Positions 42,743-60,171 of a stretch of 64,000 nt of DNA are shown in pieces. A program made the translations under genes and the position numbers. Origin of the DNA: an uncultured virus (IMG/VR IMGVR_UViG_3300031539_000017) (lineage: Duplodnaviria > Heunggongvirae > Uroviricota > Caudoviricetes); IMG/VR virus record IMGVR_UViG_3300031539_000017, one strand, 5' to 3'. Each line of letters begins with the position of its first letter. Positions within the stretch are counted from its first letter, which is position 1. A model generated the notes under the pieces. The model made no database searches. It was not told the DNA's origin and saw nothing but the letters and a program-made list of their open reading frames with translations.

Positions 42743-43747
42743 ATGTCTAGCTACTGGAAGGACCGCCGGGTTATCTGCACGGGGGGATCGGGCTTTCTCG
42801 GCTCTCACCTGGTCGATGCCCTGAGGCGCTTGGATTGCAAGCCGTTTGTCCCCCGCTCCGGCCAGTACGATTTGCGGAGTGAAGAGGGCGTTATCAATAT
42901 GTTCAACGATGCCATGGCGCTGTGGGGCCAGGAGGGGTGCCAAACCCTGTTTCACCTCGCGGCGCTGTGTGGTGGTATCGGGTTCAATCAGAAGTTCCCC
43001 GCTCGGTTGTGGCATGACAATTTGCTGATGGGCATCCATCTCATCAACACGGCGGCATTTTGCGGGGTGGAGAAGTTTGTGGGTGTGGGTACGGTGTGCT
43101 CATACCCGAAGCATACCCCGACGCCGTTCAATGAACAGTCCTTGTGGGACGGTTACCCTGAGGAGACCAATGCTCCTTACGGCCTCGCCAAGAAGGCGCT
43201 CCTGGTTGGCCTGCAGGCGTATGGGCAAGAGAGGCAATTAGAGTGGACCTACGTCATGCCCACGAACCTCTACGGGCCGCGGGATCACTTCGGGGCGCGG
43301 TCCCACGTCATCCCGGCCCTGATTGACAAGTTTCTACACGCCAAAGGGGAGCCTACGGTGTCTGTGTGGGGCACGGGCACGCCCACGCGCGACTTTCTGT
43401 ACGTCAAGGACTGCGCTGCGGCGCTGCTCCTGGCGGGGGAGTTGCTTTCGGGAGGTCCGTACAACATCGGCTCAGGACGCGAAATCAGCATCGAGGACCT
43501 GGCACGCCTCATAGCGGACGCAGTGGGCTTCCGGGGTCAAATCTGCTTTGATGCCTTCAAGCCCGACGGCCAGCCACGCCGGGTGCTCGATAGTTCCAAG
43601 TTTATGAAACTAACAGAGTGGTCCCCACAGGTGGGGTTCGAGCAGGGATTGACTCAGACGGTGCAGTGGTATAGAGATTTACAGCAGGACGGCAAGCCTG
43701 AGTTGACCGGTGTGCGTGCTGAATCCGGTGGGTCGCCGTCGGTATAG
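42743..43747 (+). CDS. fcl: GDP-L-fucose synthase
   Basis: TGGSGFLG, HLAALCGGI, CSYPK, YGLAK, PTNLYGP, SHVIPALI, WGTGTPTRDFLYV, KPDGQPRR. Confidence 0.9.
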   Translation: MSSYWKDRRVICTGGSGFLGSHLVDALRRLDCKPFVPRSGQYDLRSEEGVINMFNDAMALWGQEGCQTLFHLAALCGGIGFNQKFPARLWHDNLLMGIHLINTAAFCGVEKFVGVGTVCSYPKHTPTPFNEQSLWDGYPEETNAPYGLAKKALLVGLQAYGQERQLEWTYVMPTNLYGPRDHFGARSHVIPALIDKFLHAKGEPTVSVWGTGTPTRDFLYVKDCAAALLLAGELLSGGPYNIGSGREISIEDLARLIADAVGFRGQICFDAFKPDGQPRRVLDSSKFMKLTEWSPQVGFEQGLTQTVQWYRDLQQDGKPELTGVRAESGGSPSV

Positions 43748-43756
43748 GGAGGGAAC

Positions 43757-44404
43757 ATGAACGAGATTGCTGTTTTTCAGATGGGCAAGTGCGGGTCGTC
43801 CACGGTCATTGAGCTGGCGCGGAAGCTGGGCATCCACGCTTCGCGGGCGTACACCCCGATGAATGCTGTGCAGGCACAGTATCCCAACGTCATCAGCATG
43901 GCTCGGGAGCCGGTGATCCGGAACGTCTCAGCGTTCTTCCACGAGATGGCGGGCACGCTGACAGAGACGGGCTACAGCCAGGCGCTGCTAGATGAGTTCC
44001 TGCTGGGGAAGCATGATGTGCCGCTGACGTGGTTCTCTAAGGAGTTCCAGGCTGAGACCGGCATCAGCATCTATGCAGAGAAGTTCGACCGCAAGCGGGG
44101 CTGGTCCATCTATGAGAGTGGTAACAGGCGCATCTTGGTCATCAGGACTGAGGATATGACCAGGTGCCTCCTGGAGGCCATGGGTGCCCTACTGGGTGAG
44201 GAGCTGCCACGGGTAGAGGTAGAGCATTGGTTTAGTGATGCTGAGCGGCCTCACGGCGTGGGCGCTTTGTATCGGCAGTTCATGAGGGAGGCTGTTATGT
44301 CGGAGGCGTACCTGAGGCGCATGTATGGCAGCCGGTATGCCAAGCACTTCTACTACAAGAAGGAGCTTGACAGCTTTCGCGAGTTCTGGAGCGCACCGAG
44401 ATGA
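43757..44404 (+). CDS. Sulfotransferase-like capsular polysaccharide synthesis family protein
   Basis: QMGKCGSST and REPVIRNVSAFF PAPS-binding-type motifs. Confidence 0.7.
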   Translation: MNEIAVFQMGKCGSSTVIELARKLGIHASRAYTPMNAVQAQYPNVISMAREPVIRNVSAFFHEMAGTLTETGYSQALLDEFLLGKHDVPLTWFSKEFQAETGISIYAEKFDRKRGWSIYESGNRRILVIRTEDMTRCLLEAMGALLGEELPRVEVEHWFSDAERPHGVGALYRQFMREAVMSEAYLRRMYGSRYAKHFYYKKELDSFREFWSAPR

Positions 44405-45120
44405 GGGTATTCGTGACCACTAATGACCGGCACTTGTGGATACTTCCGGCCTTTGCGTACCTGTTCAACAAGTACTGGTCCTCTTTGCAACCTGTGGTCG
44501 TGGCGGGCTACAGCCGCCCCGACTTTGAGCTGCCCCCCAATTTCGAGTTCTACCAGATCGCGGAGGCGAACTACCCTGTTGAGAAATGGTCTGACGGGGT
44601 GGTGCAGTTCTTGGAATCCGTGAACGATGAGCTGTTCGTGTGGATGCTGGAGGATATGCTTCTCACGCGCACGGTAGATGTGCGGGCCGTGGGTAGCCTG
44701 GCGGAGTACATGACGCTGCACCACGAGGTCATTAGGATAGACCTAACTGCTGACAGGCTCTACGCGGGGGCATCGCCGGGGCAGAGGCCTGAGTATGAGT
44801 ACTACGGTAGCATGGACCTTGTGTGGTCGGAGCCGTCCAGCCCGTATCATCTCAGCCTGCAAGCGGCTATCTGGCGGCGGGACTACCTGCTGAATTATAT
44901 GATCCCCGGTGAGACGCCCTGGCAGCTGGAGATGGCAGGTACGGAGCGGCTATCGAGCACGCCGGAGGTGGTGGTACTGGGCACCCGGCAGCTCCCATGT
45001 AGATATACATTGGCCCTCAAGAGCGAGCATCCCACGGAGCCGAGCATAACCGGGATGCGCCAGGAGGACTATGACTATCTGGTGGAGCGGGGCTGGCTTC
45101 CGGAGGGGTGTCTGACGTGA
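44401..45120 (+). CDS. Putative glycosyltransferase (GT-A-like)
   Basis: F..LFNKYW, WMLED, SLQAAIWRRDYL, TPWQLE pattern of polysaccharide-locus GTs. Confidence 0.6.
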   Translation: MRVFVTTNDRHLWILPAFAYLFNKYWSSLQPVVVAGYSRPDFELPPNFEFYQIAEANYPVEKWSDGVVQFLESVNDELFVWMLEDMLLTRTVDVRAVGSLAEYMTLHHEVIRIDLTADRLYAGASPGQRPEYEYYGSMDLVWSEPSSPYHLSLQAAIWRRDYLLNYMIPGETPWQLEMAGTERLSSTPEVVVLGTRQLPCRYTLALKSEHPTEPSITGMRQEDYDYLVERGWLPEGCLT

Positions 45121-46334
45121 AGCGAGACATAGACTCAATCATCATCGGTGAGCGGCATCGCAAGAACCTGGGGGATATCAAGGTTTTGGCTGCTAGTATA
45201 GCGGATATTGGCCTTTTGCATCCTGTGGTGATACGTCCTGATGGGGTACTCATTGCTGGCCTGCGCAGGCTAGAAGCCTGCAAATTGCTAAGTTGGTCCA
45301 AGGTTCCCGTCACAGAGGTGAACCTGGAAGAGATAGTCCGTGGCGAATCTGCTGAGAATATCTATCGCAAGGACTTTCCATTATCTGAGGCCGTCGCCAT
45401 AGGCGAGGCCCTAGAACCGTTGGAGGAAGAAGCAGCCAAGAAGAGAAAGCGAGAAGCTGGCATTGCGAATTTACCGACTGTGAGTGCCAAAAAGTTTTCG
45501 GCACTCACGAAGAAAGAAACAGGTGAAACCCTTTCCAAGGTCGCCGCTGCTATAGGGATGTCTAAGCCGACTTATAAGAAGGCCAAAGAGATTGTTGAAG
45601 CAGCACGGAAGAAACCTAAAAAGTATGCTCCGCTTGTAGAGAAGATGGACCAGATTGGTAAGGTGGCTGGTATCCACAAAGACCTGAAAAGAATGCAGAA
45701 AGCTGAGAAAAAAGCTAAGCAAGCGAAGGCGCAACCTTGCATGGATGGGATACTCGTTGGCTCGATCACGGAGGTCGGCACTCAAATTACTGATGATACC
45801 GTGGACTTTGTGCTCACGGACCCACCATATGCTGGCGGTCAAGTTAGTTTGTTCAGTGACTTATCCGCTCTCGTGGCTAGGGTACTAAAACCTGGGGGCC
45901 TCTGTTTGGTCTATAGTGGCCAGATGTTCTTGCCGGAGGTTATCGTTGGCTTGGGTGAACATCTGGAGTACGTTTGGACTTTTGCCATTCGGCACAGTGG
46001 CGGCAATCAGCGTATCCACAAGTTCAATCTCAATAACGCGTGGAAGCCGGTCTTGGCATATTGCAAACCGCCGCTCGAAGTATGGTGGGATAGTTTCATT
46101 GATCTCACGACTGGGGGCCGAGAGAAGGACCTTCATAAATGGCAGCAAGCCGAAACGGAGGCCGCTTATTTCATTGAGCATTTGACCATGCCGGGGGCCC
46201 TGGTATTGGATCCGTTCATGGGTAGTGGTACGGTCCTGGCGGCGGCGAAGCGCTTGGGTCGGGCTTACTTGGGCATCGAAATTGATTCTGACGTGGCTGC
46301 GAAGGCGGCGAAGAGGATTGGAGAAGTCAAATGA
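45108..46334 (+). CDS. ParB-like domain fused to amino-DNA methyltransferase
   Basis: SIADIGLLHPV..LIAGLRRLEA (ParB), EN..RKD, TDPPY and LDPFMGSGT. Confidence 0.85.
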   Translation: MSDVKRDIDSIIIGERHRKNLGDIKVLAASIADIGLLHPVVIRPDGVLIAGLRRLEACKLLSWSKVPVTEVNLEEIVRGESAENIYRKDFPLSEAVAIGEALEPLEEEAAKKRKREAGIANLPTVSAKKFSALTKKETGETLSKVAAAIGMSKPTYKKAKEIVEAARKKPKKYAPLVEKMDQIGKVAGIHKDLKRMQKAEKKAKQAKAQPCMDGILVGSITEVGTQITDDTVDFVLTDPPYAGGQVSLFSDLSALVARVLKPGGLCLVYSGQMFLPEVIVGLGEHLEYVWTFAIRHSGGNQRIHKFNLNNAWKPVLAYCKPPLEVWWDSFIDLTTGGREKDLHKWQQAETEAAYFIEHLTMPGALVLDPFMGSGTVLAAAKRLGRAYLGIEIDSDVAAKAAKRIGEVK

Positions 46335-46768
46335 CCCGACAACGCATGGATGGAAAAGGAACACCCTTTGGCGAATGGCTTAGGACCCGCCACCAAGGCA
46401 AGATAGGGTCGCACACTTTCTCCGCCCAGAACCTTGACTACATTTGGCACAATTACCGCGAGAATTGGTTCATCACCATCGAAGAGAAGCGCTACGGCGG
46501 TATGAGGGACCGGAGTGCGCAGAGAGCTCAAAGGGATACCCATGGCATAGTAGCGCAATTGCTCGAAGGGTCTTCGGGTATGGATGTTGATACGCTGCGG
46601 GGCCATCGAAGGGCTGAGTATCGTGGTCATTATGAGATTGTGTTTGACCGGACCAGCCCGGACGATGGTGATATGACCATCAATGGGAGGCAGGCGAACG
46701 AGCAAGATTTGCTTAGACTCTTGACGGTTGGCAGATGGTCATGGAGTTCTGCGGAGTTGGAGCTATGA
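46331..46768 (+). CDS. Hypothetical protein, possibly PD-(D/E)XK-like
   Basis: NLDYI...IEEK...AQ pattern; follows methyltransferase. Confidence 0.5.
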   Translation: MTRQRMDGKGTPFGEWLRTRHQGKIGSHTFSAQNLDYIWHNYRENWFITIEEKRYGGMRDRSAQRAQRDTHGIVAQLLEGSSGMDVDTLRGHRRAEYRGHYEIVFDRTSPDDGDMTINGRQANEQDLLRLLTVGRWSWSSAELEL

Positions 46769-47667
46769 TCACCGTCCCCATCCGCGACGGCACCTTCCCG
46801 CACAGCGCCTCCATGTCCCTGGCTGGCGAGAACGCGGGCGAGGCCCCGAAGTCTCTGCACTGGCGCCGTGTGCCGGACCTCCTGGATGATGCGCCTGTGA
46901 TGGTGTTCACGGATATGTGCCTGGATGAAGTCTTGCTCTCCCGGTCCCCGACGAACATCGCCATTCTTATAGAGCCGCCTGCGTTCTCCACGACTCATTA
47001 TGAGAAAGCTGTGATGCTGGAGAAGTACTTTGATGCCATATTCACCTATGACCTGGAGCACCTGCGCCGTGGCGGCCCGTGGCGGTTCTACCCCTATGGC
47101 GGGTCGAGGATTCAGGAGTGGCACGTCTACGAGAAGCTGGGGCTAGTGAGCCTCATTGTGTCGGATAAGCACGTCACGGAGGGGCACCGCCTCCGCCATG
47201 AGGCTGTTGAGCGGTTCGGCTCGCACCTACACGTCTTTGGGGAGCCTTATACCGAGTACCTTAACCCGAAGGGACCAGGGCTGCGGCCCTTCTGTTATTC
47301 CGTTGTCATCGAGTCTGGGCGGAGTGACTACTATTTTAGTGAGAAGCTCGTTGACTGCTTCTCACAGGGAGCGGTGCCCATCTACTGGGGCTGCCCTGGC
47401 ATTGACGGGTTTTTTGAGGGGAACGGGATCATCTCCTTTGAGACCCTGGATGACCTGGCGTACATCCTGGCGTCCATCTCAATGCAAGACTATCACGACC
47501 GCTTGCCTGCTATCATGCGTAATCTGGAGCTGGCGCGGAGCTTTCGGTGTGCCGAGGACCACCTGGTACGGGAGTATGGCTGGCTTTTCGAGGACAGTGA
47601 GCAGGCGGCCCTGATGCGCATGCAGAGCAAGGAGCAGCTGGTGCAGAGTGAGCCGGTAATCAGGTAA
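46765..47667 (+). CDS. GT10-family fucosyltransferase-like protein
   Basis: YSVVIES...YYFSEKLVDCF..GAVPIYWG matches the alpha-1,3-fucosyltransferase motif. Confidence 0.8.
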   Translation: MITVPIRDGTFPHSASMSLAGENAGEAPKSLHWRRVPDLLDDAPVMVFTDMCLDEVLLSRSPTNIAILIEPPAFSTTHYEKAVMLEKYFDAIFTYDLEHLRRGGPWRFYPYGGSRIQEWHVYEKLGLVSLIVSDKHVTEGHRLRHEAVERFGSHLHVFGEPYTEYLNPKGPGLRPFCYSVVIESGRSDYYFSEKLVDCFSQGAVPIYWGCPGIDGFFEGNGIISFETLDDLAYILASISMQDYHDRLPAIMRNLELARSFRCAEDHLVREYGWLFEDSEQAALMRMQSKEQLVQSEPVIR

Positions 47668-47674: not shown

Positions 47675-48019
47675 ATGATGCATGATGTGGGGGACATTCA
47701 TGTAGCAGTAGATGTCAGGCCCTTTGGCGGCGTTGAGATTTATATTGGGCGTGGGAGGGGTTCTGGTTTTGAGGTGGCTCAGCCTGTAGAGCTGATATTC
47801 AAGTCCGCGAAGCCGGAGGAGGTATCCGAGCCAACTTTGCGGTTAGGTGAGTACTATGCCCATGAGCTGTTACAGGCGCTGGCTGAGGGGTTCGATAGTA
47901 TTGGTATCAGGACCGACAAAGATGCCAAGATTGAAGGCACGCTGGGAGCGACGCGGTATCACCTGGAAGATTTGCGGAGCTTGCTGAAGTTGGGGGGGGA
48001 TGAGAACCAATCTCAGTGA
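47675..48019 (+). CDS. Hypothetical protein
   Basis: AAGGAGG RBS. Confidence 0.6.
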   Translation: MMHDVGDIHVAVDVRPFGGVEIYIGRGRGSGFEVAQPVELIFKSAKPEEVSEPTLRLGEYYAHELLQALAEGFDSIGIRTDKDAKIEGTLGATRYHLEDLRSLLKLGGDENQSQ

Positions 48020-48719
48020 CAAACGGCTGTTCTTCGTGATCGGTCCACCCCGGTCCGGCACGACCATCGTGGCCAGAGTATTCAACTCCTTAGAAGATGG
48101 GTTCTGCTTAGGGGAGCCGCACTGGATTCACGAGGCTGAGGGCGGCAAGGCTGACGGGCAGGCCTACGGCAAGGTCGAACGGTGGCACAAGCCCGTGGAT
48201 GATTACCGGCTCATCATGCAGGCCAATGTGATACCGATCCTGGAGCGGGGTCCTTTCAAGGTTGGAGGCTACAAGGAGACTTACCAGCACTTCCGGCATA
48301 CCTGCGAGCCTTTGCTGGAGGCTCACATGCCCTTGGTAGACTTCTTCATCGTGGTGCTTCGGGACCCCCGACTGGTGCTATCCTCGCTGCGGGCGCTGGG
48401 CTGGGACAATGTGCGAGTGAGAGACATCAATCAAGACTACGAGCGCATGAGTGAGCTGGCGCAGGATGAGCGGGCGGTCGTGGTGGTCTTGGAGGACTTC
48501 GTGAAGGACCCCCTGGGATACCTGAATGCGTGGCTGCCCTTTCAGATCGAGGGGCCTTTGGAACTGAAGCCCACGGGTCACAGGTACGGTGACACGGTTG
48601 CCAATAAGGGTGATACTGTGGACCCCGAGGCGCCGGGCCGGAGAGTTATGGACCTCAGCGACAAGTGGGTGCGGGGTTTGGCCCCGGCCATGGGGGTGTG
48701 GGAACGATGGAAGAGCTAA
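48000..48719 (+). CDS. Sulfotransferase
   Basis: GPPRSGTT (5'-PSB loop) and LRDPRLVLSS (3'-PB). Confidence 0.8.
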   Translation: MRTNLSDKRLFFVIGPPRSGTTIVARVFNSLEDGFCLGEPHWIHEAEGGKADGQAYGKVERWHKPVDDYRLIMQANVIPILERGPFKVGGYKETYQHFRHTCEPLLEAHMPLVDFFIVVLRDPRLVLSSLRALGWDNVRVRDINQDYERMSELAQDERAVVVVLEDFVKDPLGYLNAWLPFQIEGPLELKPTGHRYGDTVANKGDTVDPEAPGRRVMDLSDKWVRGLAPAMGVWERWKS

Positions 48720-49525
48720 GGGCCTTGATGGGACGGTACACTGTGGAGAACCTGGACCCTTTTGAGGCATCTGACGGGATGGAGGCCAAGCGGTTCCAGG
48801 AGCGCATCGAGTCCCTGCCGGGCACGGTGTACGGTGATGACCCCAATCAGCGCCCGTTTGATAACGTGTTCACCTGGGGGCACGACCATGATTTCGGGAC
48901 CTTCCAGATGAAGGGCCAGATGGGAGATCGGCACATCCGGGTGGTCAAGGCGTTCCTGGATATGGGGGTGGAGTTCAAGGGCCGTGTGCTGGACGTGGGC
49001 TGCTGGACTGGTGGCACATCGCTCCTACTGGCGGCGATGGGGTGCGAAGTCACCGCTGTTGAAGAGGCTCTTCATTATGCTGGGGTCATGAACTTTTTGG
49101 CGCAGGCCTTTGGCCTTGGGAGTCAACTGGAGGTCATTCATTGGTCCCTTTACGACCTTCCGGGCTTTTGTGAGCCGGTGGACATGGTGGGGAGGTTTGA
49201 CCTGGTTTTGTGCGCGGGCGTCCTGTACCATGTGACTGATCCTGTACGTGCTCTACGCATCATGTTTGAGCGTTTGGCAGACGGCGGGACGTTGTTGCTG
49301 GAGACCGCGATCTCTGAGGTTACGGGCAAGCATTTGGTCTACTGCGGCCCGCAAGAGCCGGGTTACCGATGGCTCCTACCTACGGTGGAGGTGTTGTACT
49401 GCATGTTGGTGGACGTGGGTTTCAAGGACATTCAACACGAACTGCACGCTGACGGCAGCCGGGCTACGGTAGTCGCTAAAAGGAAGGAACACGTGAGTAT
49501 GATGATGGCGGGGGTATCGAGGTGA
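48707..49525 (+). CDS. Class I SAM-dependent methyltransferase (CmoB-like)
   Basis: VLDVGCWTG, FDLVLCAGVLYH, GGTLLLET. Confidence 0.8.
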   Translation: MEELRALMGRYTVENLDPFEASDGMEAKRFQERIESLPGTVYGDDPNQRPFDNVFTWGHDHDFGTFQMKGQMGDRHIRVVKAFLDMGVEFKGRVLDVGCWTGGTSLLLAAMGCEVTAVEEALHYAGVMNFLAQAFGLGSQLEVIHWSLYDLPGFCEPVDMVGRFDLVLCAGVLYHVTDPVRALRIMFERLADGGTLLLETAISEVTGKHLVYCGPQEPGYRWLLPTVEVLYCMLVDVGFKDIQHELHADGSRATVVAKRKEHVSMMMAGVSR

Positions 49526-50061
49526 CCATAACAGCTTTTGACCTTTCAGATGGGAATGAACCAATGAGTTACGGCGAGATCAACTTCCTGGTCTCATTGG
49601 TCAAGGACCTTACGGCAGAACCGGTCATCGTCAACATCGGGGCCGCGGATGGTGTGTCCACCGTGGCTATGCTGGAGGCCCGCAGGGATGCCTTCATCTT
49701 CTCTGTGGACATCGGCGAGTGCCCCCAGGAGCGGGCCAACGTAGAGGCTGCTGGGCTTGATGTAACCCGCGTGGTGCGACTCTTAGGGCGCAGTCAGGAC
49801 GTCGGCAAGCGGTTCCCCTATGAGGCTGATATGGTGCTTGTGGATGGAGGGCATGATTATGAGTCCGTGGGGGGGGATATTGAGGTCTGGGCTTGGCGCG
49901 TGCGACCTAGCGGGGTGCTGGCGTTTCACGACTACATCGAGCCACCCCGGCCTGCGAACAACCCGAGTGAGGCTTTTGAGGCTGTGAATGATAACCTACC
50001 GGACGGGTTTGAGCTGGTCAGCCGTGTGGACAGGCTGATTGCATTCAGGAGGGTGGGGTGA
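49522..50061 (+). CDS. Methyltransferase (Methyltransf_24-like)
   Basis: VNIGAADGVST, VDGGHDYESV..DI, LAFHDY. Confidence 0.8.
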   Translation: MTITAFDLSDGNEPMSYGEINFLVSLVKDLTAEPVIVNIGAADGVSTVAMLEARRDAFIFSVDIGECPQERANVEAAGLDVTRVVRLLGRSQDVGKRFPYEADMVLVDGGHDYESVGGDIEVWAWRVRPSGVLAFHDYIEPPRPANNPSEAFEAVNDNLPDGFELVSRVDRLIAFRRVG

Positions 50062-52023: not shown

Positions 52024-52034
52024 GGGAGGACACC

Positions 52035-52244
52035 ATGTTTGAGATTTTTCAGGGCGTTATTCTTAAATCGGATTGCCGACTAATCATTGTGTTTCGTGAT
52101 GAGGGGTCTATGCAGGCTGAGTTGATAACCCTCAATACTCATGGTCTGTTGGTCCATGCTGAAGGGGGCACTATGTATGTGCCTTGGACCTCAGTCAAGA
52201 CTGTCGAGCTTCTTGATATTCTCGATGATTCTAGTGGGGAATAG
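52035..52244 (+). CDS. Hypothetical protein
   Basis: GGAGG RBS after element copy 7. Confidence 0.55.
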   Translation: MFEIFQGVILKSDCRLIIVFRDEGSMQAELITLNTHGLLVHAEGGTMYVPWTSVKTVELLDILDDSSGE

Positions 52245-53446
52245 TGGAGCCAAGGGGCATTCTCTACTTTGCCATAGGTAGTAGGTATCTCATGCAGGCA
52301 CAGAAGGCCGTGGCTCGCGTGCGGGACGTGTGGCCTGGGATGCCGTGCGCTATCTGGACGGAGCGGGTACCTGGTCCGGTGATGCTATCCCGTATGGAGG
52401 CCTGGCGGCAATCACCCTTCGAGCGCACCCTGGCCCTGGATGCAGACGTGTGGCTGGCGGAGCCGGTGCCGGAGGTCTTTGACTTACTGGACCGCTTCGA
52501 CCTGGCGGCGGCGTATGCCCCCTGGAGAGAGGGTTATCCTGTGAATGTGCCCGATGCCTTCCCGGAGCACAACTGCGGCGTGGTGGCCTTTCGTAAAGAT
52601 GTGATCCTACTGGATTTCATGAACGATTGGGAGCGGAGGTTCCGGGAGCGCTACAGGGACATAGAGGAGATCAAGGGTTTCCACAATGATCAACCCGCTT
52701 TCCGGGAGGCCCTGTACTACTCAAGGGTGCGTGTCGCTACCCTGCCAGCGGAGTACAACTGGCGGGGTGTGGGTTATGTTTGGGGGAAAGTGAAGGTGCT
52801 GCACGTCAGGCGCCCGCCCCAGATGGTAGAACGGGAGATCAATGAGCGACTTGGACCAAGGGTGTGTATGAACTGGAAGATTCACTATGGAGAGGAGTTC
52901 CACCCGTCGATGATGCTGGAGGCGATAGACCTGACTGGCAAGGACTACCATCACGAGCTAGAGGACATAGACACGCTGAAACGGCTGGCGGGGATGCTGC
53001 CCAGGGATGCGGTGGTAGTCAACATCGGGGCTGCGTTTGGTACGAGCGCCCTAGCACTCCTGGAGGCCCGTGAGGACCTGTTCGTGTTCTCTGTGGATGT
53101 GAAGCCCTGTGAGAAGGAGAGGGAACACCTGGCGCAGTCGGGCGTGGACCCGGCGCGGTGCGTGCGGGTGCTGGGTCGCTCTCAGGAGATAGGGTGGCCG
53201 CGTGTGGTGGATATGGTTTTTCTGGATGGTTCCCATGCCCGCAAGGACGTGATAGCGGACATCGAGGCATGGCTGCCCCGAATCAAGCCAGGGGGCATCG
53301 TGGCGGCTGATGACTACGAGAAGGGCTGCACACCTGCGGTGAAGCCTGTGGTGGATGAGGTGCTGATGGGCAAGTATGAGATGATCCTGCACGTGGGGGA
53401 TATCGTGGCATTCAGGATACAGGGAGGGGACGATGGCAGAGCGTGA
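52244..53446 (+). CDS. GT8-like glycosyltransferase fused to methyltransferase
   Basis: SPFERTLALDAD, NCGV, DQPAFR, LPAEYN; then VNIGAAFG, LDGSH, DDY. Confidence 0.8.
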   Translation: MEPRGILYFAIGSRYLMQAQKAVARVRDVWPGMPCAIWTERVPGPVMLSRMEAWRQSPFERTLALDADVWLAEPVPEVFDLLDRFDLAAAYAPWREGYPVNVPDAFPEHNCGVVAFRKDVILLDFMNDWERRFRERYRDIEEIKGFHNDQPAFREALYYSRVRVATLPAEYNWRGVGYVWGKVKVLHVRRPPQMVEREINERLGPRVCMNWKIHYGEEFHPSMMLEAIDLTGKDYHHELEDIDTLKRLAGMLPRDAVVVNIGAAFGTSALALLEAREDLFVFSVDVKPCEKEREHLAQSGVDPARCVRVLGRSQEIGWPRVVDMVFLDGSHARKDVIADIEAWLPRIKPGGIVAADDYEKGCTPAVKPVVDEVLMGKYEMILHVGDIVAFRIQGGDDGRA

Positions 53447-53624
53447 GTGCCTGGAGTGCGGCTGCGTGCGCGGCGAGTACCTGTGCCGGGTGGCGGAGCA
53501 TCTCTGGGGCAGGGTAGAGTCGTTCTACCAGCGCAGCCAGAGGATGGGCTTCGATGAGAAGACCTGGAGCGATTATCAAGGGGCGCTGGCAGACTACAAG
53601 GCGCATTTCGGCAGGGAATCATGA
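53433..53624 (+). CDS. Hypothetical protein
   Basis: GGAGG RBS, overlaps neighbours. Confidence 0.5.
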   Translation: MAERECLECGCVRGEYLCRVAEHLWGRVESFYQRSQRMGFDEKTWSDYQGALADYKAHFGRES

Positions 53625-54427
53625 ATGAGCAAGACCTCAAGGACGCCTTCGCGGCCCTGGAGCCGATGAGTGACGAGGCCCCGCCCCGGTACACGTGGGA
53701 GCGGCACCGGTGGGAGATGCGCCGCCATGTGCGCCGGGATCCCATTGCGGGGTTCTTGAACTGGCCCACGGTGACGGCTACCATGTTCGCGGGGGAGACC
53801 CCGTTTATCCGTTCTGAGCTGGAGGCCCTGCGGGCGCAGCCTGATTGGGCGATCCCTTGGCGGCCTGCCATCGCGGATAGCGGAATAGGCAATGCCCCAC
53901 GGATGTCCGGCGACACTTCCACGAACGCCAATATGATTCATCAGGCTTTTCACCTGATGATGTGGAACAAGGCCACGCTCAAGGAGCTGCGGGACCTGGA
54001 GACCATCACGGAGTTCGGTGGGGGCTATGGGGCCATGTGCCTGATAGCGTCAAGATTGGGGTTCCGGGGCACCTACCGCATGGTGGACTTCCCCGAGATG
54101 CGGCTTCTGCAGACCTACTACCTGTCACAGCACGAGCTGGGGTGCACGGTGGAGTTTCGGGAGGTCATCGGCCCACCGCGTTCAGACCTGTTGGTGGCTT
54201 GTTATTCGCTGAGTGAGGTCCCGCTAGAGGATCGCAAGCCGCTTCTCGGGGACGGGCGCGCTGACCATGCGGCCAATAGCTATCTCTTTGCCATGCAGGA
54301 TAAGTGGGATGACGTGGACAATCTGGATTGGGTGAGGCAGTTTACTATGTGGGACAGGGACGACTTGCTGTGGTCCATCTTCCCGATGGTGAGGCCGGGG
54401 CACTGGTACGCGATGGGCAATGCCTAA
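53621..54427 (+). CDS. Putative sugar O-methyltransferase
   Basis: EFGGGYG, VDFPE..LQ.YYL, SLSE motifs. Confidence 0.7.
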   Translation: MNEQDLKDAFAALEPMSDEAPPRYTWERHRWEMRRHVRRDPIAGFLNWPTVTATMFAGETPFIRSELEALRAQPDWAIPWRPAIADSGIGNAPRMSGDTSTNANMIHQAFHLMMWNKATLKELRDLETITEFGGGYGAMCLIASRLGFRGTYRMVDFPEMRLLQTYYLSQHELGCTVEFREVIGPPRSDLLVACYSLSEVPLEDRKPLLGDGRADHAANSYLFAMQDKWDDVDNLDWVRQFTMWDRDDLLWSIFPMVRPGHWYAMGNA

Positions 54428-54638: not shown

Positions 54639-54704
54639 ATGCCCAAGTGGACTGAGGATCTAAACGCATAGGTCATAGAACGCGACGAAGGTGGAGGATG
54701 AGGG

Positions 54705-54977: not shown

Positions 54978-55246
54978 ACCTAGAGGTCATAGAACGCGAT
55001 GAGGAACGATGTATCCTCTGTCCTGCGCCAGCGATGTATAAGCCGCACCACATCGTCCCCAGGTCTAGGGGCAAGGGGCGGAGTCCGAAACTATGGCGCT
55101 TAGAGAATATGTGTTGCGTCTGCCCACTACACCATGACAATACCAAGGCACTGCGAATCAGGTTGCTTGAGAGAATGGTTGAGCTTGGGCATGATATGAC
55201 TTGGGCCAGAGAATTTGTCGGCGAGATCGCGGGGGTGACATGCTAA
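54953..55246 (+). CDS. HNH endonuclease
   Basis: RD..RCILC...HHIVPRS.G...LEN...CPLHH. Confidence 0.8.
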   Translation: MPKWIDDLNLEVIERDEERCILCPAPAMYKPHHIVPRSRGKGRSPKLWRLENMCCVCPLHHDNTKALRIRLLERMVELGHDMTWAREFVGEIAGVTC

Positions 55247-56637
55247 TCTGCGCTGACTCTAGGGCTGCGCTGGCAGAGATAGAAGAGGGGAGCGTACAGT
55301 GCTGCATCACCTCTCCGCCATACTGGAGCCTCCGCAGGTACGGCGATGCAGCGGAGATGGTCTTTGGCGGCGATGCTGGCTGTGAGCATGAGTGGGGGCA
55401 GCACATTGTCAATCGGCGGGGCGCAGGCGGCGAGAGGGAATATGGCAGCTCTGATAGCGGTGTGGGCCGGGGGCCGGCACCCGAGTTGCCCTCCTCCAAT
55501 ATCTGCTCCCTCTGCGGCTGCTGGCGCGGTCAGTTCGGATTAGAGCCCACCCCCGAGATGTACGTGGAGCACATGCTGGACTTTTTGCGGGCAATATGGC
55601 GGGTGCTGAGGGATGATGGGACGCTGTGGCTGAATCTCGGGGACTCTTATGCGAGTCAGGGGGGGGCTAAGACAGAAGCCTCATACGCCTCAGCAGGCAC
55701 GGGCAATAGTGCCAATCGGACGCTGCGGGTTGATGCCCGGAGACCACCCGGAGGCCTCAAGCCCAAGGACCTCGTGATGATCCCCTTCCGCGTGGCGTTG
55801 GCTGCGCAGGCAGACGGGTGGTGGGTGCGGTCGGTGATCATCTGGTCCAAGCCTAACCCCATGCCAGAGTCAGTGCGGGACAGGCCGACAACGGCGCATG
55901 AATACGTGTTCCTCTTGACGAAGAGCAAGACCTACTTCTACGATGCCGATGCGATAAGGGAGCCATGTACCATGACGCCCCAGGCCAGGTTGACTCCACG
56001 AGACATGAAGAATGGCAAGGATAGCCAGCGGGCCGTTCACCGTAGACCACAATACCAGCTCCGAGATGAGCCAGGGGTAGAGGGCAACCCATTAGGCCGC
56101 AACAAGCGTACGGTCTGGGAGATAGCCACGGCCCCATATCCCGGCGCCCACTACGCAACATTTCCTCCCAAGCTAGTAGAGCCGATGATACTGACCACGC
56201 CCACGAAGGTCTGCGCTGAGTGCGGGGCTGGGTGGGAGAGGGTGGTTCAGAAGCCCGACATGAAGGAGCGACCAAAGCGCAACCAGCAGAAATACGGAGC
56301 AGAGCGCATCAATGTTGGCTGGGGTGACTACCCGCAGAGCGCGGGGCAGGAGTGGCAAAAGTGGCGCAACGAGAACCCTGACGTAACCCTTGGCTTCCGC
56401 CCCACCTGCTCCTGTGATGCTGAGACCAAGCCCGCCGTCATCTTAGACCCCTTCTGTGGTAGGGGCACCGTTCTCAAAGAGGCAAGAGCGCATGGCCGGG
56501 ACTGGATAGGCATAGACGTCGATCCTCAATCTATCAAGCTGGCGGAGGAATGGCTGGGGCTAGGGGAGGTTACCTATGAGATTGACGAAGAGCATTGGAT
56601 ACAGCCGCAATTAGTCAATGAGGAGTCAGCACAATGA
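55240..56637 (+). CDS. DNA methyltransferase (beta class, SPPY, probably N4-cytosine)
   Basis: ITSPPYW, LNLGDSY, IWSKPNPMPES, HYATFP, LDPFCGRGT. Confidence 0.9.
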   Translation: MLICADSRAALAEIEEGSVQCCITSPPYWSLRRYGDAAEMVFGGDAGCEHEWGQHIVNRRGAGGEREYGSSDSGVGRGPAPELPSSNICSLCGCWRGQFGLEPTPEMYVEHMLDFLRAIWRVLRDDGTLWLNLGDSYASQGGAKTEASYASAGTGNSANRTLRVDARRPPGGLKPKDLVMIPFRVALAAQADGWWVRSVIIWSKPNPMPESVRDRPTTAHEYVFLLTKSKTYFYDADAIREPCTMTPQARLTPRDMKNGKDSQRAVHRRPQYQLRDEPGVEGNPLGRNKRTVWEIATAPYPGAHYATFPPKLVEPMILTTPTKVCAECGAGWERVVQKPDMKERPKRNQQKYGAERINVGWGDYPQSAGQEWQKWRNENPDVTLGFRPTCSCDAETKPAVILDPFCGRGTVLKEARAHGRDWIGIDVDPQSIKLAEEWLGLGEVTYEIDEEHWIQPQLVNEESAQ

Positions 56638-57896
56638 TCTTTTCCAATCGTCACGAGGTGGAGACACACCTGGCTGAGCAGGCCGATGGGGGTGTCATCG
56701 TCGAAGTGGGCTGCGGCGTAGGCGATGGCCTGGTGGCCCTGCTCAACGGCACGCGGTACGGTAGACTTTTGCCTGTGTATGCTGTCGATCCTTATACTCC
56801 CTACGTGGACAAGCTGGGGGGCACCTACGGGCCGGAGAGCAAGCAGGAGGCCCTGGATAAGGTGGTGGGCACGGGGTTGGGGCGGTTGGTGGCCTTCGTC
56901 GAGGAGGACGGCGTACTGGTGGGCGAAAATTGGGACTTGCCTACGGCCCTGGTGTGGATTGACGTCAGCATGGAGTATGACGGTCTCAAATGCGTCTGGG
57001 ACGCCTGGGCGGACAAGGTCATGGAGGACGGACATATCGCTATCGCGGGCCTGGGTTATAGCAGCCTGGGTACAGCGCGGGTGATGCAGGAGGCCGTTGA
57101 CTCGGGGGACTTCGTGCGGGTGCTGTCGGAGCAGGACAGGGTGGCGGTACTACGCAGGGTGCCCCGGAATAGGCGGGCCGTGTTCTACATCGTGGATGGT
57201 GAACCCTATGCTGAGGAGGCGGCTTACAGTGCGTCCAGTGTCAAGGAGCACATGCCCGGCGTGGAGACCTTTCTGTTTGCGGTGGGTGGCACAGGGGCCA
57301 GGGAGAGCATCGACCACGTAGTGCTCTTGCCGCCTCGGGAGAGCGAGCTGTGGTACCTGGACAGCACGCGGTACTTCAACCAGGCGGTGGCGCACCTCCA
57401 CGAGTACAACCGTCTTTTGTACCTTGACACGGATACCTGGGTGGCCTGGGACTGTTTGGATATGTGGTGGCTCCTAGAGCAGTTTGACGTGTGCCTGGGG
57501 CACAGTGCGGGCCGGGAGGCCATGCCTTCAGCGATTGGGACGCCCCCGGCGTTCACTACCCTGTCTATCGGGGTTAGTTTATTCCGCAACAACGCGGAGG
57601 TCCGGGCTACGCTGGCGGACTGGCTGGCGTTCTACGAGAAGTACCAGGGCATCTACGGCGACAATGATGAGAGTCCTTTAAGGGATGTGCTGTGGCTGAA
57701 TCGGCAGGGGCTGAAAATGTATATCCTGCCCCCTGAGTACAACGTCCGAGCTGGGTTTGGGTGCTGGCTCTACGGTCGGGCTAGGATAGTTCATGCTCGG
57801 CTGCCTCGGTTGAGGCATGTAGCAGAGCAGTTGAATGAGCACACGTCTATGCGTTTGTGGCACGATGGTGAGTTCTTGTGGTGGCATCAGAAGTGA
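56634..57896 (+). CDS. Methyltransferase-like domain fused to GT8-like glycosyltransferase
   Basis: VEVGCGVG..AVDP; then LYLDTD, NDESPLR, LPPEYN. Confidence 0.75.
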   Translation: MIFSNRHEVETHLAEQADGGVIVEVGCGVGDGLVALLNGTRYGRLLPVYAVDPYTPYVDKLGGTYGPESKQEALDKVVGTGLGRLVAFVEEDGVLVGENWDLPTALVWIDVSMEYDGLKCVWDAWADKVMEDGHIAIAGLGYSSLGTARVMQEAVDSGDFVRVLSEQDRVAVLRRVPRNRRAVFYIVDGEPYAEEAAYSASSVKEHMPGVETFLFAVGGTGARESIDHVVLLPPRESELWYLDSTRYFNQAVAHLHEYNRLLYLDTDTWVAWDCLDMWWLLEQFDVCLGHSAGREAMPSAIGTPPAFTTLSIGVSLFRNNAEVRATLADWLAFYEKYQGIYGDNDESPLRDVLWLNRQGLKMYILPPEYNVRAGFGCWLYGRARIVHARLPRLRHVAEQLNEHTSMRLWHDGEFLWWHQK

Positions 57897-57909: not shown

Positions 57910-58188
57910 ATGGACAGCAACGTCTTAACCCGAGGCATAATTCCCCTGAGGCGCATCAAGCGCCTGCGTAGGTGCATGAACCCCAGTTGCCGCTTCGTGG
58001 TCGGCGCGGGCAAGATGGCCTTGGAGAGCACCAACATCGGTGAGTTCGCGCGGTTGACCTGCCCTAAGTGCGGAGCACTGCATGTGTTCAACCCCATCTC
58101 TACTGTGAGGCCTGATGCTGAGCGGCACATCTTCGTGGTCCGTGACCGGGGTGGTCAGGTAGAGCATATTTTCCCGAGGGTGCAATGA
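57910..58188 (+). CDS. Zn-ribbon protein
   Basis: CMNPSC...CPKC. Confidence 0.6.
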   Translation: MDSNVLTRGIIPLRRIKRLRRCMNPSCRFVVGAGKMALESTNIGEFARLTCPKCGALHVFNPISTVRPDAERHIFVVRDRGGQVEHIFPRVQ

Positions 58189-58634
58189 GGCGGCGCTACT
58201 TTGAGTGGGATTACGTTAGTAACCGCATGACTGAGTGGGCTCGCGTGGGGCACTGCTGCCAGTGCGCCGCGTGTTGTCAGAACAGCATCGGCTTCAAGTT
58301 TGAGAGCAGCAAGCTCTATGAAGCGAAGAAATCGGGCAGTTACTACACCACTGGCAAGGGCATCTGGCAGGAGGTCCGCGTAGGGGGCCGGTACAGGCAC
58401 TTCTTCCAAATGGAGTACGTGGCTGCCAAAGGGAAGGGGTGCGCCAGCCTGGAGCGTGGCTTGTGCGAGGAGTATGAGCACCGTACTTGGATTTGCCGGG
58501 AGTGGCCCTTCTCGCCGCGCTGCATAGAAGCCACCTCGGAGTGTACTTATGGATTCCGCGAGGTTGATCGTAGGTCTTTTGTGGTCGTCGTCCCTGAGAA
58601 GGACGAGGGCGATTTCGTACATGTGCCATTGTAG
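58185..58634 (+). CDS. YkgJ-family cysteine cluster protein
   Basis: CCQCAACC...C....C..YEHR..IC.EWP. Confidence 0.75.
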   Translation: MRRRYFEWDYVSNRMTEWARVGHCCQCAACCQNSIGFKFESSKLYEAKKSGSYYTTGKGIWQEVRVGGRYRHFFQMEYVAAKGKGCASLERGLCEEYEHRTWICREWPFSPRCIEATSECTYGFREVDRRSFVVVVPEKDEGDFVHVPL

Positions 58635-58643
58635 GAGGGTGTT

Positions 58644-59303
58644 ATGGTCACTAAGGCCATCATGCTCATCCACGTCTTCCGGACCGGTGGTTACATGGTG
58701 CAGGGGGTCCTACGGAAGGTCCCTGGCCTGGTGATGGTCTCGGATAGGCCCACGGAGCACCTGACCTATGATCAGATGGCTGTGGTGTGCGCGAGAGAAC
58801 GCATGGGGAACCCGCCCGCTATGGTTTTTATCCGCAACCCTTTTGACTGGTATGTCTCTATGTGGTGCTGGGTCAACATGGCGCCGAACATGCCTCCAGT
58901 CTCGGAGTTCCGCGAATACCTGGAGGTCATCCGGGTGCGGCGCTATGGCACCACGGGGACGGGCCGCAACTATAGCAGGCTCTCCGAGCACTGGGCTGAC
59001 ATGGGGGCAGGCAAGGCGCAGTGGGAGGGGCGCTTTGAGACTCTACGGGAGGACTTCATGGACATCATGCTCAAGGTCATGCCCAGCCTGGTGAACGAGA
59101 AGATGTTAGGGGACCTCATGGCCAAGGAACCCATCTATCACCCCAGCAGGCATCCTCAGACAGGTAGGCATCCTGGGGACTATCGGCAATACTACACCCC
59201 GGAGACAAGGGCATTGGTCGAGGAGTGGGACAGTGAGCTTCTAGAGCGGTTCGGTTACACTTTTGAGGAGAAGGTAGATGATATACCCAATCCCGGTGCC
59301 TGA
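58644..59303 (+). CDS. Sulfotransferase family 2-like protein
   Basis: IHVFRTGG, RNPFDWYVS, GRFETL, YRQYY, FGYTF. Confidence 0.75.
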   Translation: MVTKAIMLIHVFRTGGYMVQGVLRKVPGLVMVSDRPTEHLTYDQMAVVCARERMGNPPAMVFIRNPFDWYVSMWCWVNMAPNMPPVSEFREYLEVIRVRRYGTTGTGRNYSRLSEHWADMGAGKAQWEGRFETLREDFMDIMLKVMPSLVNEKMLGDLMAKEPIYHPSRHPQTGRHPGDYRQYYTPETRALVEEWDSELLERFGYTFEEKVDDIPNPGA

Positions 59304-60171
59304 TGAGTTCCGCCCGGCCAGCCAGGGTTACACTATGCCGCCGCACTGCCCGCCGGAGGGGTACGGCGTGGAGCAGGACTTTGACGCTTGGTTACGGACG
59401 CAAGGGGAGCTTTTGACTGATTCCGCGGAGGCCGACTGGCTGTACCTCCCGGTGTTCTGGAACCGGCTCTTTATTGCCACCTGGAAGTGGGCGCAGGATG
59501 AGGCCGCCATAGCCCGCTGCGCCGATTGGCTGGCGGCTCTCAGGGATAGTTTGGGCGGCTTTGAGAGGGTGTTCACCGTCTGTGAATGGGACCTGACCAC
59601 GGAGCGGCAGGAGCTGGGCACGGACGGGCTGACTGTGTTCACGGCGGGGCGTCGGGATCGCGCAGGCCTTGATATACCGTTGCTCTGTGCCCCACATGGC
59701 GTCCCGCCGGTTTCATACGGCAAGCAATACCTGGCGTCATTTGTGGGCAACATTGGGACGTCAGGCTGGCGTCAGGGTATGTTGGAGGCCCTGGAGGGCT
59801 ACGGCGGGGTCCTCATCGAGCACGCACAGAAGGGGCCAGCCTATTTCTGTGATGTGATGACCAAGAGCTACGTGGCCCTGGCCCCCAGGGGTCACCGGGG
59901 GCAGAGCTTCCGGTTCTACGAGGCCATGGACATGGGTGTGGCCCCGGTCCTGATCGGTGATATGGATACCCGGCCCTTTAAGAATTGGGTCAATTGGGAC
60001 TCATGCTCTTACTACGTTCCTGACGCCTCGGAACTTCCCGGCTTTATTGACAACCTGGACCTGGAGGACGCGTTACGCAAGGGCGCGGAGGCGGCACGGG
60101 TATACCATGAGTGTCTGCGGTTCGGGCGGTGGTGCATGTTTGTGGTGCCTGAGCTGCTGAGCGTGCCGTAA
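59278..60171 (+). CDS. Exostosin-like (GT47) glycosyltransferase
   Basis: ASFVG, KSYVALAPRG..SFRFYEAM..G..PVLI. Confidence 0.8.
   Translation: MIYPIPVPDEFRPASQGYTMPPHCPPEGYGVEQDFDAWLRTQGELLTDSAEADWLYLPVFWNRLFIATWKWAQDEAAIARCADWLAALRDSLGGFERVFTVCEWDLTTERQELGTDGLTVFTAGRRDRAGLDIPLLCAPHGVPPVSYGKQYLASFVGNIGTSGWRQGMLEALEGYGGVLIEHAQKGPAYFCDVMTKSYVALAPRGHRGQSFRFYEAMDMGVAPVLIGDMDTRPFKNWVNWDSCSYYVPDASELPGFIDNLDLEDALRKGAEAARVYHECLRFGRWCMFVVPELLSVP

What the first reader, a model, noticed from the sequence alone, without database searches (positions are those of the whole stretch)
42743..60171. Phage-encoded pathway for a fucosylated, sulfated, methylated glycan
Seen: after the lysis genes, a ~17.5 kb same-strand island encodes GDP-fucose synthase, five glycosyltransferase-like proteins (GT-A-like 44401, GT10 46765, two GT8-like fusions, GT47 59278), three sulfotransferase-like proteins, six non-DNA methyltransferase domains and a radical SAM enzyme. 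None shows an obvious signal peptide or multi-TM region, and no flippase, polymerase or Gtr-type gene is present. Established: some phages glycosylate their virions with a few GTs, and serotype-converting phages use membrane GtrABC proteins. Inference: this is a cytoplasmic assembly line for a complex glycan on the virion, more elaborate than the phage systems I know. DNA hypermodification is less favoured because no hydroxymethylase or TET/JBP gene is visible in the window.
Basis: partly seen in the sequence, partly recalled or inferred. Interest (0 to 1): 0.88.

Follow-up and report, generated by a model that had tools for sequence, protein, structure and literature searches.

The report
Phage sugar-coat tailoring gene cassette
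An uncultured tailed phage carries fourteen conserved genes for adding, methylating and sulfating sugars, many of which sit beside the capsid gene in its relatives, so it most likely coats its own particle with an elaborate glycan, though no experiment shows this yet.

Summary
Observation confirmed: 14 soluble enzyme genes (GDP-fucose synthase-like, five glycosyltransferase, three sulfotransferase-like and six methyltransferase domains, one radical-SAM/SPASM protein with an atypical CX5HX2C motif), all kept in a 77%-identical sibling phage (dN/dS 0.085-0.22), interleaved with swappable passengers. Homologues of 9 of the 14 lie, in related phages, between the putative major capsid gene and a GT4-GT2-GT2 enzyme; that enzyme is in the head module in 30 of 33 relatives. 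Here the slot is empty and the cassette sits behind the lysis genes, under a promoter-like motif shared with tail and lysis genes. The triple GT ends in a small post-capsid-gene domain (lambda gpFI/YqbF-like fold, weak Z) that keeps its own ribosome-binding site (23 of 28 homologues) and weakly docks on the capsid protein in prediction: a candidate targeting device. Strong 6-bp palindrome avoidance and no TET/ThyA/C5-methylase argue against DNA hypermodification. Best reading: virion glycan, fucosylated, O-methylated, probably sulfated (0.68); acceptor, host and product untested. The scan noted similar head-module cassettes on other DNA at least eight times. New variant of phage virion glycosylation.

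The parts
23506..25005 (+). Putative major capsid protein (499 aa); candidate acceptor
   Evidence: Assigned by position (TerL, portal, protease/scaffold upstream) and 91% conservation in the sibling; no Pfam, PHROG or PDB hit, so inferred
25060..27693 (+). Capsid-adjacent GT4-GT2-GT2 glycosyltransferase (877 aa), proposed core/initiating enzyme
   Evidence: Pfam GT2 and GT1/GT4 hits; in the head module in 30 of 33 related phage clusters
27382..27693 (+). Nested C-terminal domain (M-x-C-x-x-C-G then L9N/GINS-B-like fold) with its own ATG and Shine-Dalgarno; stand-alone gene after the capsid gene in GT-less relatives
42625..42686 (+). Promoter-like element: TTTTGCACAAAA, then TTTTGCCAGCAAAA, then TATACT; same motif before tail-tip (34166) and lysis (41422) genes and mid-island (51981)
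   Evidence: conserved in sibling
42743..43747 (+). GDP-4-keto-6-deoxymannose epimerase/reductase (GDP-L-fucose synthase-like)
43757..44404 (+). NKWYS-family protein, sulfotransferase-like by motifs
   Evidence: Pfam 41.7 bits, cut-off 25.1; motifs; fold untested
44401..45120 (+). GT-A-fold glycosyltransferase of no named family; commonest partner of the triple GT in relatives
   Evidence: in the head slot of 17 of 33 clusters
45108..46334 (+). ParB-N6/N4 DNA methyltransferase; passenger, absent from sibling
46735..47667 (+). GT10-like alpha-1,3/4-fucosyltransferase (likely start 46765)
48000..48719 (+). Sulfotransferase (Sulfotransfer_3; GPPRSGTT, RDP..S motifs)
48665..49525 (+). Class I SAM methyltransferase
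49522..50061 (+). Methyltransf_24 methyltransferase; homologues common in the head slot
50666..51217 (+). Methyltransf_24-like methyltransferase
51219..51977 (+). Radical SAM/SPASM-twitch protein with C-x5-H-x2-C in place of CxxxCxxC
52244..53446 (+). GT8-like domain fused to Methyltransf_24
53621..54427 (+). NanM-like putative sugar O-methyltransferase (weak)
   Evidence: homologues in head slot of 5 of 33 clusters
55201..56637 (+). N6/N4 DNA methyltransferase; passenger, replaced in sibling and skipped in co-occurring variants
56634..57896 (+). Methyltransf_24 domain fused to GT8-like domain
57910..58634 (+). Zinc-ribbon protein and CxxCxxCC protein; kept in sibling, role unknown, not seen in relatives' cassettes
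58644..59303 (+). Sulfotransferase (Sulfotransfer_2-type clusters, mostly viral)
59278..60171 (+). GT47 (exostosin-like) glycosyltransferase
60446..60474 (+). Perfect sigma-70 consensus promoter starting the next unit; marks the downstream end of the cassette

Best explanation
The cassette is the elaborating half of a phage-encoded, cytoplasmic virion-glycosylation system whose core is the GT4-GT2-GT2 enzyme behind the capsid gene. Shown: enzyme classes, conservation, linkage to the head module in relatives, shared promoter-like motif, nested domain with its own ribosome-binding site. Inferred: during lytic growth the triple GT is brought to the prohead by its C-terminal gpFI/YqbF-like domain (also made alone from an internal start) and builds a core glycan on the capsid or another virion protein; the GT-A enzyme 44401, two GT8-like domains, the GT10 and the GT47 extend and fucosylate it, using GDP-fucose finished by the phage from a host Gmd product; methyltransferases and sulfotransferases cap it with host SAM and PAPS; the radical SAM protein may oxidise or epimerise a sugar. 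In this lineage the cassette moved from the head module to a spot behind the lysis genes and grew. The likely benefit (inference) is a variable, charged, shielded particle surface.
For: 14 of 14 enzyme genes kept in order in the sibling at 67-90% identity, dN/dS 0.085-0.22 against 0.06-0.28 for structural genes. Search by capsid protein: triple GT in the slot in 30 of 33 clusters that reach the next gene (29 by script, plus L068); cassette families in 25 of 33; 51 of 54 clusters with 6 kb or more downstream carry some glycan gene. Homologues of 9 of 14 island genes seen in that slot. Slot empty in this phage and its sibling. Motif TTTGCNNGCAAA 8 times in the window against 0.03 expected, before island, tail-tip and lysis genes in both phages. 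C-terminal domain stand-alone in GT-less L060 and L110; SD-like motif before its start in 23 of 28 homologues against 34 of 442 other internal Met codons; among 150 best library hits 67 fused to the GT, 81 N-terminal. Predicted capsid protein-domain complex: score 0.55, best control 0.00, 'weak support'; at 0.60 or under only 18 of 157 solved complexes and both passing mismatches; contacts agree at least 64%, partner pLDDT at least 65. Precedent: Corndog O-methyltransferase plus three GTs in the head module (PMC4351075, passages); glycosylated capsid and tail tube in Che8, Corndog, Myrna (PMC12363180, passages).
Against: No direct evidence for a glycan or an acceptor. The capsid gene is assigned by position only. 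No conserved Ser/Thr-ended tail on capsid, tail tube or the following protein. 5 of 14 genes (48000, 48665, 51219, 58644, 59278) were not found in relatives' head slots, with single-sequence profiles. The promoter-like motif also lies in the replication region (window 31, 62019), so it is not late-specific. The fold match to gpFI is low (Z 3.5, rmsd 5.9, 54 aligned), and gpFI also contacts terminase-DNA (PMC13595911). The capsid alignment was seeded from GT-linked loci and only the best 80 of 161 loci were returned, so 30 of 33 may be inflated.
Confidence: 0.68

Rival explanations
1. The enzymes remodel a host cell-surface glycan (capsule, O-antigen-like or S-layer glycan precursor) from the cytoplasmic side, using the host's own export, for superinfection exclusion or during a carrier state.
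For: The enzyme classes are those of bacterial surface-polysaccharide loci (NKWYS, NanM-like, GT10). This is the published reading of cyanophage GT clusters (PMC7824862; PMC12801897; passages). Here the cassette is outside the head module with its own promoter-like site. Distant homologues of 44401 also lie in large low-GC glycan clusters with no capsid gene seen within 10 kb.
Against: No tyrosine integrase, no membrane segment, no flippase or polymerase here or among 150 slot ORFs of relatives; near-elimination of palindromes fits a non-temperate phage (PMC6286503); head-module placement in relatives.
Confidence: 0.15
2. The system glycosylates the packaged DNA, with the gpFI-like and HhH domains coupling the triple GT to packaging.
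For: HhH tail on the triple GT in 9 of 33 loci (Pfam HHH_5); N6/N4 DNA methyltransferases in the same slot in 5 of 33 and next to 44401 here; gpFI bridges capsid and terminase-DNA; phage GT-A and GT-B enzymes do modify DNA (10.1101/2023.12.21.572611, passages).
Against: No Tet_JBP, C5 methylase or ThyA in the record, which holds this phage's complete circle (the Tet control passed no cut-off, so that blank is weak); none of Tet/ThyA among 150 slot ORFs, one C5 methylase and one 2OG-FeII_Oxy_3. 6-bp palindromes at 0.45-0.48 of expectation in both phages, shuffled control 0.96, median 0.63 in 31 related loci, 26 under 0.8; hydroxymethylase phages avoid 2.4% of sites against 55.8% (PMC6286503). 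HhH is as common on N-terminal forms (58 of 81) as on GT fusions (41 of 67), and this phage's enzyme lacks it. The DNA methylases are not shared by the sibling.
Confidence: 0.1
3. The cassette is a composite: the head-linked genes glycosylate the virion, but the lineage-specific ones (48000, 48665, 51219, 58644, 59278) make or modify something else, such as a small sulfated or methylated metabolite.
For: These five were not seen in relatives' head slots; a second promoter-like motif splits the island at 51981; the region readily takes up passengers.
Against: Relatives carry other sulfotransferases, methyltransferases and radical SAM proteins in the slot, so these classes belong to the system; the five are under the same purifying selection and in the same order in the sibling.
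Confidence: 0.07

Closest known systems
Mycobacteriophage virion glycosylation (Corndog gp35-38, Che8 gp110, Myrna; Freeman et al. 2023, not held, known through PMC12363180, PMC12619734, PMC4351075 passages)
   Same: Soluble phage GTs plus an O-methyltransferase, encoded among head genes; no membrane or export parts.
   Different: About four genes there; here 8 GT domains (3 in the triple GT, 5 in the cassette), 6 MTase domains, sulfotransferases, a nucleotide-sugar enzyme and a radical SAM protein. Neither 44401 nor the capsid protein has a match among 50,697 GenBank phage records. A GT fused to a post-capsid small protein is not mentioned in the passages read.
Chlorovirus PBCV-1 capsid N-glycan machinery (A064R, A061L, A111/114R, A118R, A295L; PMC9614988 passages)
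   Same: Cytoplasmic, virus-encoded; three-domain GTs, GT-methyltransferase fusion, GDP-fucose synthase, fucosylated and O-methylated product.
   Different: Eukaryotic giant virus; encodes its own GMD, which this phage lacks; no sulfotransferase in the passages read; homology of the GTs not tested.
Moumouvirus australiensis glycan cluster (PMC9614988)
   Same: Viral cluster with GTs, nucleotide-sugar enzymes and sulfate-related genes, suggested to give sulfated sugars.
   Different: Giant-virus fibrils; no APS kinase found in this phage.
Cyanophage 'LPS/cell-wall modification' GT clusters (P-SSM2, S-SCSM2R; PMC12801897, PMC7824862 passages)
   Same: Many GTs (13 in S-SCSM2R, incl. GT10) and epimerases in one phage genome; so sheer number is not unprecedented.
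   Different: Large T4-like myoviruses; read as host-surface modifiers; no fixed link to the capsid gene reported in the passages read.
5mYOX/ThyS-linked DNA glycosylation (10.1101/2023.12.21.572611 passages)
   Same: Phage GT-A and GT-B enzymes, sometimes with epimerases and ParB neighbours.
   Different: Needs a hydroxymethyl-base handle enzyme, not found here; strong restriction-site avoidance here.
Lambda gpFI / B. subtilis YqbF small domain
   Same: Small L9N/GINS-B-like domain; gpFI bridges capsid and terminase; model matches 2hjq Z 3.9 and 2lsm Z 3.5.
   Different: Z-scores are in the range of a common arrangement; here with an N-terminal CxxC and fused behind three GT domains.

Membership tests
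Phage virion glycosylation (mycobacteriophage type) | Soluble phage-encoded GTs, no membrane or export machinery | tested here: met
Phage virion glycosylation (mycobacteriophage type) | GT genes linked to virion structural genes | tested here: met
   Triple GT directly after the putative capsid gene; cassette homologues in that slot in 25 of 33 clusters; the cassette itself is displaced here
Phage virion glycosylation (mycobacteriophage type) | Glycans attached to capsid or tail-tube subunits | not testable with these tools
   Uncultured; needs glycoproteomics
Phage virion glycosylation (mycobacteriophage type) | Attachment at subunit C-termini (as cited in PMC12619734) | tested here: inconclusive
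   No conserved Ser/Thr-ended tail in capsid, tail-tube or following protein; internal sites not examined
Phage virion glycosylation (mycobacteriophage type) | Homology to Che8 gp110 / Corndog gp38 | not tested
   44401 has no tblastn match in GenBank phages; the other GTs were not compared
DNA hypermodification (5mYOX or ThyS plus GT) | TET/JBP, C5 methylase or thymidylate-synthase-like handle enzyme in the genome | tested here: not met
   and Pfam scans 5, 6, 48; C5 and ThyA controls rang over cut-off in 9 and 10 of 14 genomes; Tet control did not
DNA hypermodification (5mYOX or ThyS plus GT) | Loss of restriction-site avoidance | tested here: not met
   against PMC6286503
Serotype conversion (GtrABC-type) | Membrane flippase/transferase proteins in a temperate phage | tested here: not met
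   no hydrophobic segment, no tyrosine integrase
Radical SAM superfamily (51219) | CxxxCxxC cluster motif | tested here: not met
   C-x5-H-x2-C here and in 93 of 109 homologues; Pfam Radical_SAM and SPASM both pass cut-off, so it works like one by profile
GDP-L-fucose synthase (42743) | NCBIfam equivalog score and catalytic Cys/His/YxxxK | tested here: inconclusive
   Best hit but 240.7 of 500 bits; residues present; a colitose-type reductase cannot be excluded
GT10 (46735) | Pfam PF00852 over cut-off | tested here: inconclusive
   No hit for the window protein; sibling 20.3 of 23.9 bits; three relatives over cut-off; PDB hits all GT10
Sulfotransferase (43757) | PAPS-binding fold | tested here: inconclusive
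   Motifs by eye; PDB profile and profile comparison found nothing
gpFI-like packaging chaperone (27382-27693) | L9N-like fold, gene next to capsid gene, binds prohead | tested here: inconclusive
   position met; fold weak; binding weak support

The most novel reading that the evidence does not exclude
A large family of uncultured tailed phages glycosylates its particle with a glycosyltransferase that is delivered to the prohead by being fused to a capsid-assembly protein made from the same gene by internal initiation, and this lineage finishes the coat with fucose, several O-methyl groups, sulfates and a sugar reshaped by a His-ligated radical SAM enzyme: a giant-virus-grade, sulfated virion glycan in a 74-kb phage.
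Probability: 0.35. Interest if true: 0.85.

Novelty: new variant of a known kind. Interest (0 to 1): 0.66.

Why it matters
Phage particle glycosylation has been shown for a few mycobacteriophages with about four genes. If right, this extends it to a broad environmental family, adds sulfation (no such report in searches), and offers an answer to how a soluble GT finds the capsid: fusion to a post-capsid-gene protein. That is testable by co-expressing two adjacent genes. It would also suggest that some phage GT clusters now read as host-surface modifiers act on virions. The enzymes are candidate soluble glyco-engineering tools, and the CX5HX2C family is an unstudied metallocluster variant (no paper with that string).

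Tried and rejected
Artefact or decay: rejected; frames intact in both phages, dN/dS low, and contigs of three runs cover most of the island nearly identically, though these may include the source sample. Recent foreign island: GC flat. Host: unresolved; capsid relatives lie in 7 MAG contigs labelled Anaerolineae (2), Paceibacterota (3), Saccharibacteria, Altiarchaeales, probably binned viral contigs; a single-protein scan found none; no GenBank phage match. No RNA holder listed. Acceptor from C-termini: nothing conserved. PDB profile searches with the 44401, 43757 and capsid alignments gave nothing meaningful. Foldseek on the small domain: no PDB or viral match at E 0.001; Atlas hit 0.76 only; PHROG scan uninformative. 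My first full promoter pattern required TAKNAT and so matched only 2 sites, not the island's TATACT. The sigma-70 and terminator scan found no excess. Tet_JBP search in 5 related records rang nowhere, controls included, so it shows nothing. My first idea of an assembly join at window 11.8 kb was wrong. Freeman 2023 and Iyer 2013 were not held; no supplements were read, and those of Freeman 2023 or Pyle 2023 could list this family. Searches of earlier scan notes by sequence and by place returned nothing.


Full report
Setting. The window lies in a 143,142-bp virus record that holds two colinear phage genomes about 77% identical. A separate 41,977-bp record matches window 1000-16000 at 100% in one piece, and the sibling's own record is 69,345 bp. 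143,142 minus 69,345 is 73,797, the offset of a shared TnpB element with a 650-bp identical run. So the record is most likely an assembly chimera: a complete 73.8-kb circle (the window's phage) spliced into the sibling at that element. The window is wholly in one phage, and the sibling is a natural control. TerL, tape measure, Dit-like, Gp37-like tail and amidase genes make it a siphophage-like virus of a walled bacterium. Portal, capsid and tail tube are assigned by position only. The host is unresolved.

Observation. The enzyme list holds. Firm: GT47, GT-A fold of 44401, sulfotransferases 48000 and 58644, five methyltransferase domains, an epimerase/reductase closest to GDP-fucose synthase. 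Weaker: GT10, the two GT8-like halves, 53621 and 43757. No island protein has a membrane-length hydrophobic stretch. Fourteen genes (11,565 of 17,429 bp) are kept in order in the sibling with dN/dS 0.085-0.22. The genes between them, including two N6/N4 DNA methyltransferases, are mostly replaced in the sibling, and contigs from public runs skip some of them (joints 52028-52254, 54417-55241, 54417-56611). Short contigs show the same lysis-then-cassette order in at least one further relative (L137) and the same cassette order in others (L134-L136, L138). The phage encodes no GMD and no APS kinase, so it depends on host precursors.

Link to the head module. Homologues of 44401 in viral contigs (8 loci; 42 loci) very often sit between the putative capsid gene and a 37-48% identical homologue of the GT4-GT2-GT2 enzyme at 25060. 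To lessen selection on the GT, I searched with the capsid alignment: 161 loci, best 80 returned, 72 clusters at 95%, 33 of which reach the next conserved gene. The triple GT lies in between in 29 by script, plus L068 that my filter missed. L109 has a shorter form; L060 and L110 have none, although L060 has another GT after the portal. Cassette families occur in 25 of 33: 44401-like 17, Methyltransf_24 11, DegT-family 8, epimerase 7, sulfotransferase 5, NanM-like 5, GT10 3. Pfam on 96 and 150 neighbouring ORFs shows mainly nucleotide-sugar enzymes, GTs, methyl-, sulfo- and acyltransferases, plus mobile passengers, and no flippase, Tet or ThyA. In this phage and its sibling the slot holds only the triple GT. 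The simplest reading is that the cassette moved behind the lysis genes and grew. Nine of the 14 genes have homologues in the slot elsewhere; five were not seen there. The alignment was seeded from GT-linked loci, so these rates are upper-leaning.

Regulation. The island starts with a conserved element, TTTTGCACAAAA then TTTTGCCAGCAAAA then TATACT. TTTGCNNGCAAA occurs 8 times in the window against 0.03 by chance, 7 of 8 outside long ORFs: before the Dit gene, the lysis genes, the island, mid-island, in the terminase-portal region, and in the replication region. The sibling has it at matching places. A perfect sigma-70 promoter follows the island. I infer a phage-activated promoter class shared with tail and lysis genes. 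It is not late-specific.

A candidate targeting device. The last ~104 residues of the triple GT begin M-x-C-x-x-C-G. The same domain is a separate ORF right after the capsid gene in GT-less L060 and L110. An SD-like motif precedes its start codon in 23 of 28 homologues that have ATG/GTG there, against 34 of 442 other internal Met codons of the same genes; the homologues are only 17-37% identical to the window's copy apart from the sibling, though not independent. A profile finds 1,050 cluster representatives; of the best 150, 67 are GT fusions and 81 start with the domain (stand-alone or cut genes, not told apart). Its model (pLDDT 74) is L9N/GINS-B-like, with YqbF (Z 3.9, rmsd 2.4, 50 aligned) and lambda gpFI (Z 3.5, rmsd 5.9, 54 aligned) among weak hits. 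gpFI bridges capsid and terminase-DNA (PMC13595911, passages). A complex prediction with the putative capsid protein scored 0.55 against 0.00 for the best control, 'weak support': scores of 0.60 or under came from 18 of 157 solved complexes and from both mismatches that passed; contacts agree at least 64%, partner pLDDT at least 65. Inference: one gene yields a small head-assembly protein and a GT carrying that protein as an address. It could also be a relic of gene fusion.

Rivals. DNA modification has real points: HhH tails on many relatives' triple GT and DNA methylases in the slot. Against it are the missing handle enzymes, HhH being as common on unfused forms, and strong avoidance of 6-bp palindromes: 0.45-0.48 of expectation, control 0.96, median 0.63 over 31 related loci, 26 under 0.8 (the two genome slices each include a few kb of the other phage). 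Phages with hydroxymethylated DNA show almost no avoidance (PMC6286503, passages). Host-surface remodelling cannot be excluded, since soluble enzymes could act on lipid-linked host precursors, and it is the published reading of cyanophage clusters; no integrase and the head-module linkage weigh against it.

Radical SAM protein. 51219 passes the Radical_SAM and SPASM cut-offs but has C-x5-H-x2-C. So do 93 of 109 homologues; 5 have a longer spacer with His, 1 was read as Cys, 10 were unmatched or cut; the distal cysteines are nearly invariant. Two homologues carry a source label for the BtrN-type sugar dehydrogenase, a lead only. No paper holds the string CX5HX2C.

Comparison and novelty. It works like mycobacteriophage virion glycosylation (PMC4351075, PMC12363180, PMC12619734, PMC12582341, PMC10877033; passages; Freeman 2023 itself not seen) at the complexity of the chlorovirus system (PMC9614988, passages). 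Membership is unproven because no glycan has been seen. Many GTs in one phage are known (13 in S-SCSM2R; PMC12801897). Searches listed no paper on a sulfated phage virion glycan or on this family; I saw listings only for most of those, and passages of PMC13738210. Earlier notes of this scan describe similar head-module cassettes on other DNA; they are unchecked and are not support. What this locus adds is the displaced, enlarged cassette with a sibling control, the shared promoter motif, the nested tether domain and the His-motif radical SAM family.

Verdict. Real, conserved, most likely a virion glycan system (0.68). New variant of a known kind; interest 0.66.

Noticed in passing
G000:C1 62226-63847 and 136022-137643 (outside the window): The record is two related phages joined at a shared, 94% identical IS200/IS605 TnpB element with a 650-bp identical run; genes elsewhere are ~77% identical, so the element moved recently.
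   Followed up: yes
window 31, 10592, 15025, 34167, 41423, 42655, 51982, 62019: Palindromic TTTTGCnnGCAAAA motif, at several sites 13-15 nt before a -10-like box and often doubled by TTTTGCGCAAAA; probable site of an unidentified phage regulator.
   Followed up: partly
L056, L057, L076-L078, L082, L083, L085, L097, L106, L107, L111, L120 head slots: 13 of 19 DegT-family proteins show His where aminotransferases have the PLP lysine, as recalled for ColD/E1 3-dehydratases; relatives may make 3,6-dideoxysugars.
   Followed up: partly
L078, L080, L083, L092, L098, L101, L102, L105, L130 head slots: GHMP kinases, several beside Polysacc_synt_2 dehydratases and one beside a cytidylyltransferase: a second cassette type, perhaps heptose.
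   Followed up: no
window 28976-30490: Putative tail tube protein carries a C-terminal BNR/YCF48-like propeller region, conserved across the family; another possible acceptor or adhesin.
   Followed up: no
window 15883-17510: Lcl_C-domain protein between TerL and portal, replaced by an unrelated gene in the sibling; possible variable head fibre.
   Followed up: no
window 39600-41330: 576-aa protein of no family just before the lysis genes, 74% conserved in the sibling.
   Followed up: no
window 58185-58634 and 62012-62620: Two CxxCxxCC proteins; the first sits inside the cassette and is kept in the sibling. The family includes the flagellin methylase FliB (recalled).
   Followed up: no
L051:1241-3876 (just past the window): MoxR-like AAA ATPase followed by a DUF2201 metallopeptidase/VWA protein.
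   Followed up: no
L011, L033, L035-L048, L163, L177: Distant 44401 homologues (27-37%) in large glycan clusters of low-GC viral contigs, often beside GT10 or epimerase genes, with no capsid homologue of this family nearby.
   Followed up: no
L009, L010, L014, L025, L027, L030, L032, L160: 44401 homologues with GT/methyltransferase sets inside other kinds of virion modules, so the cassette moves between phage groups.
   Followed up: partly
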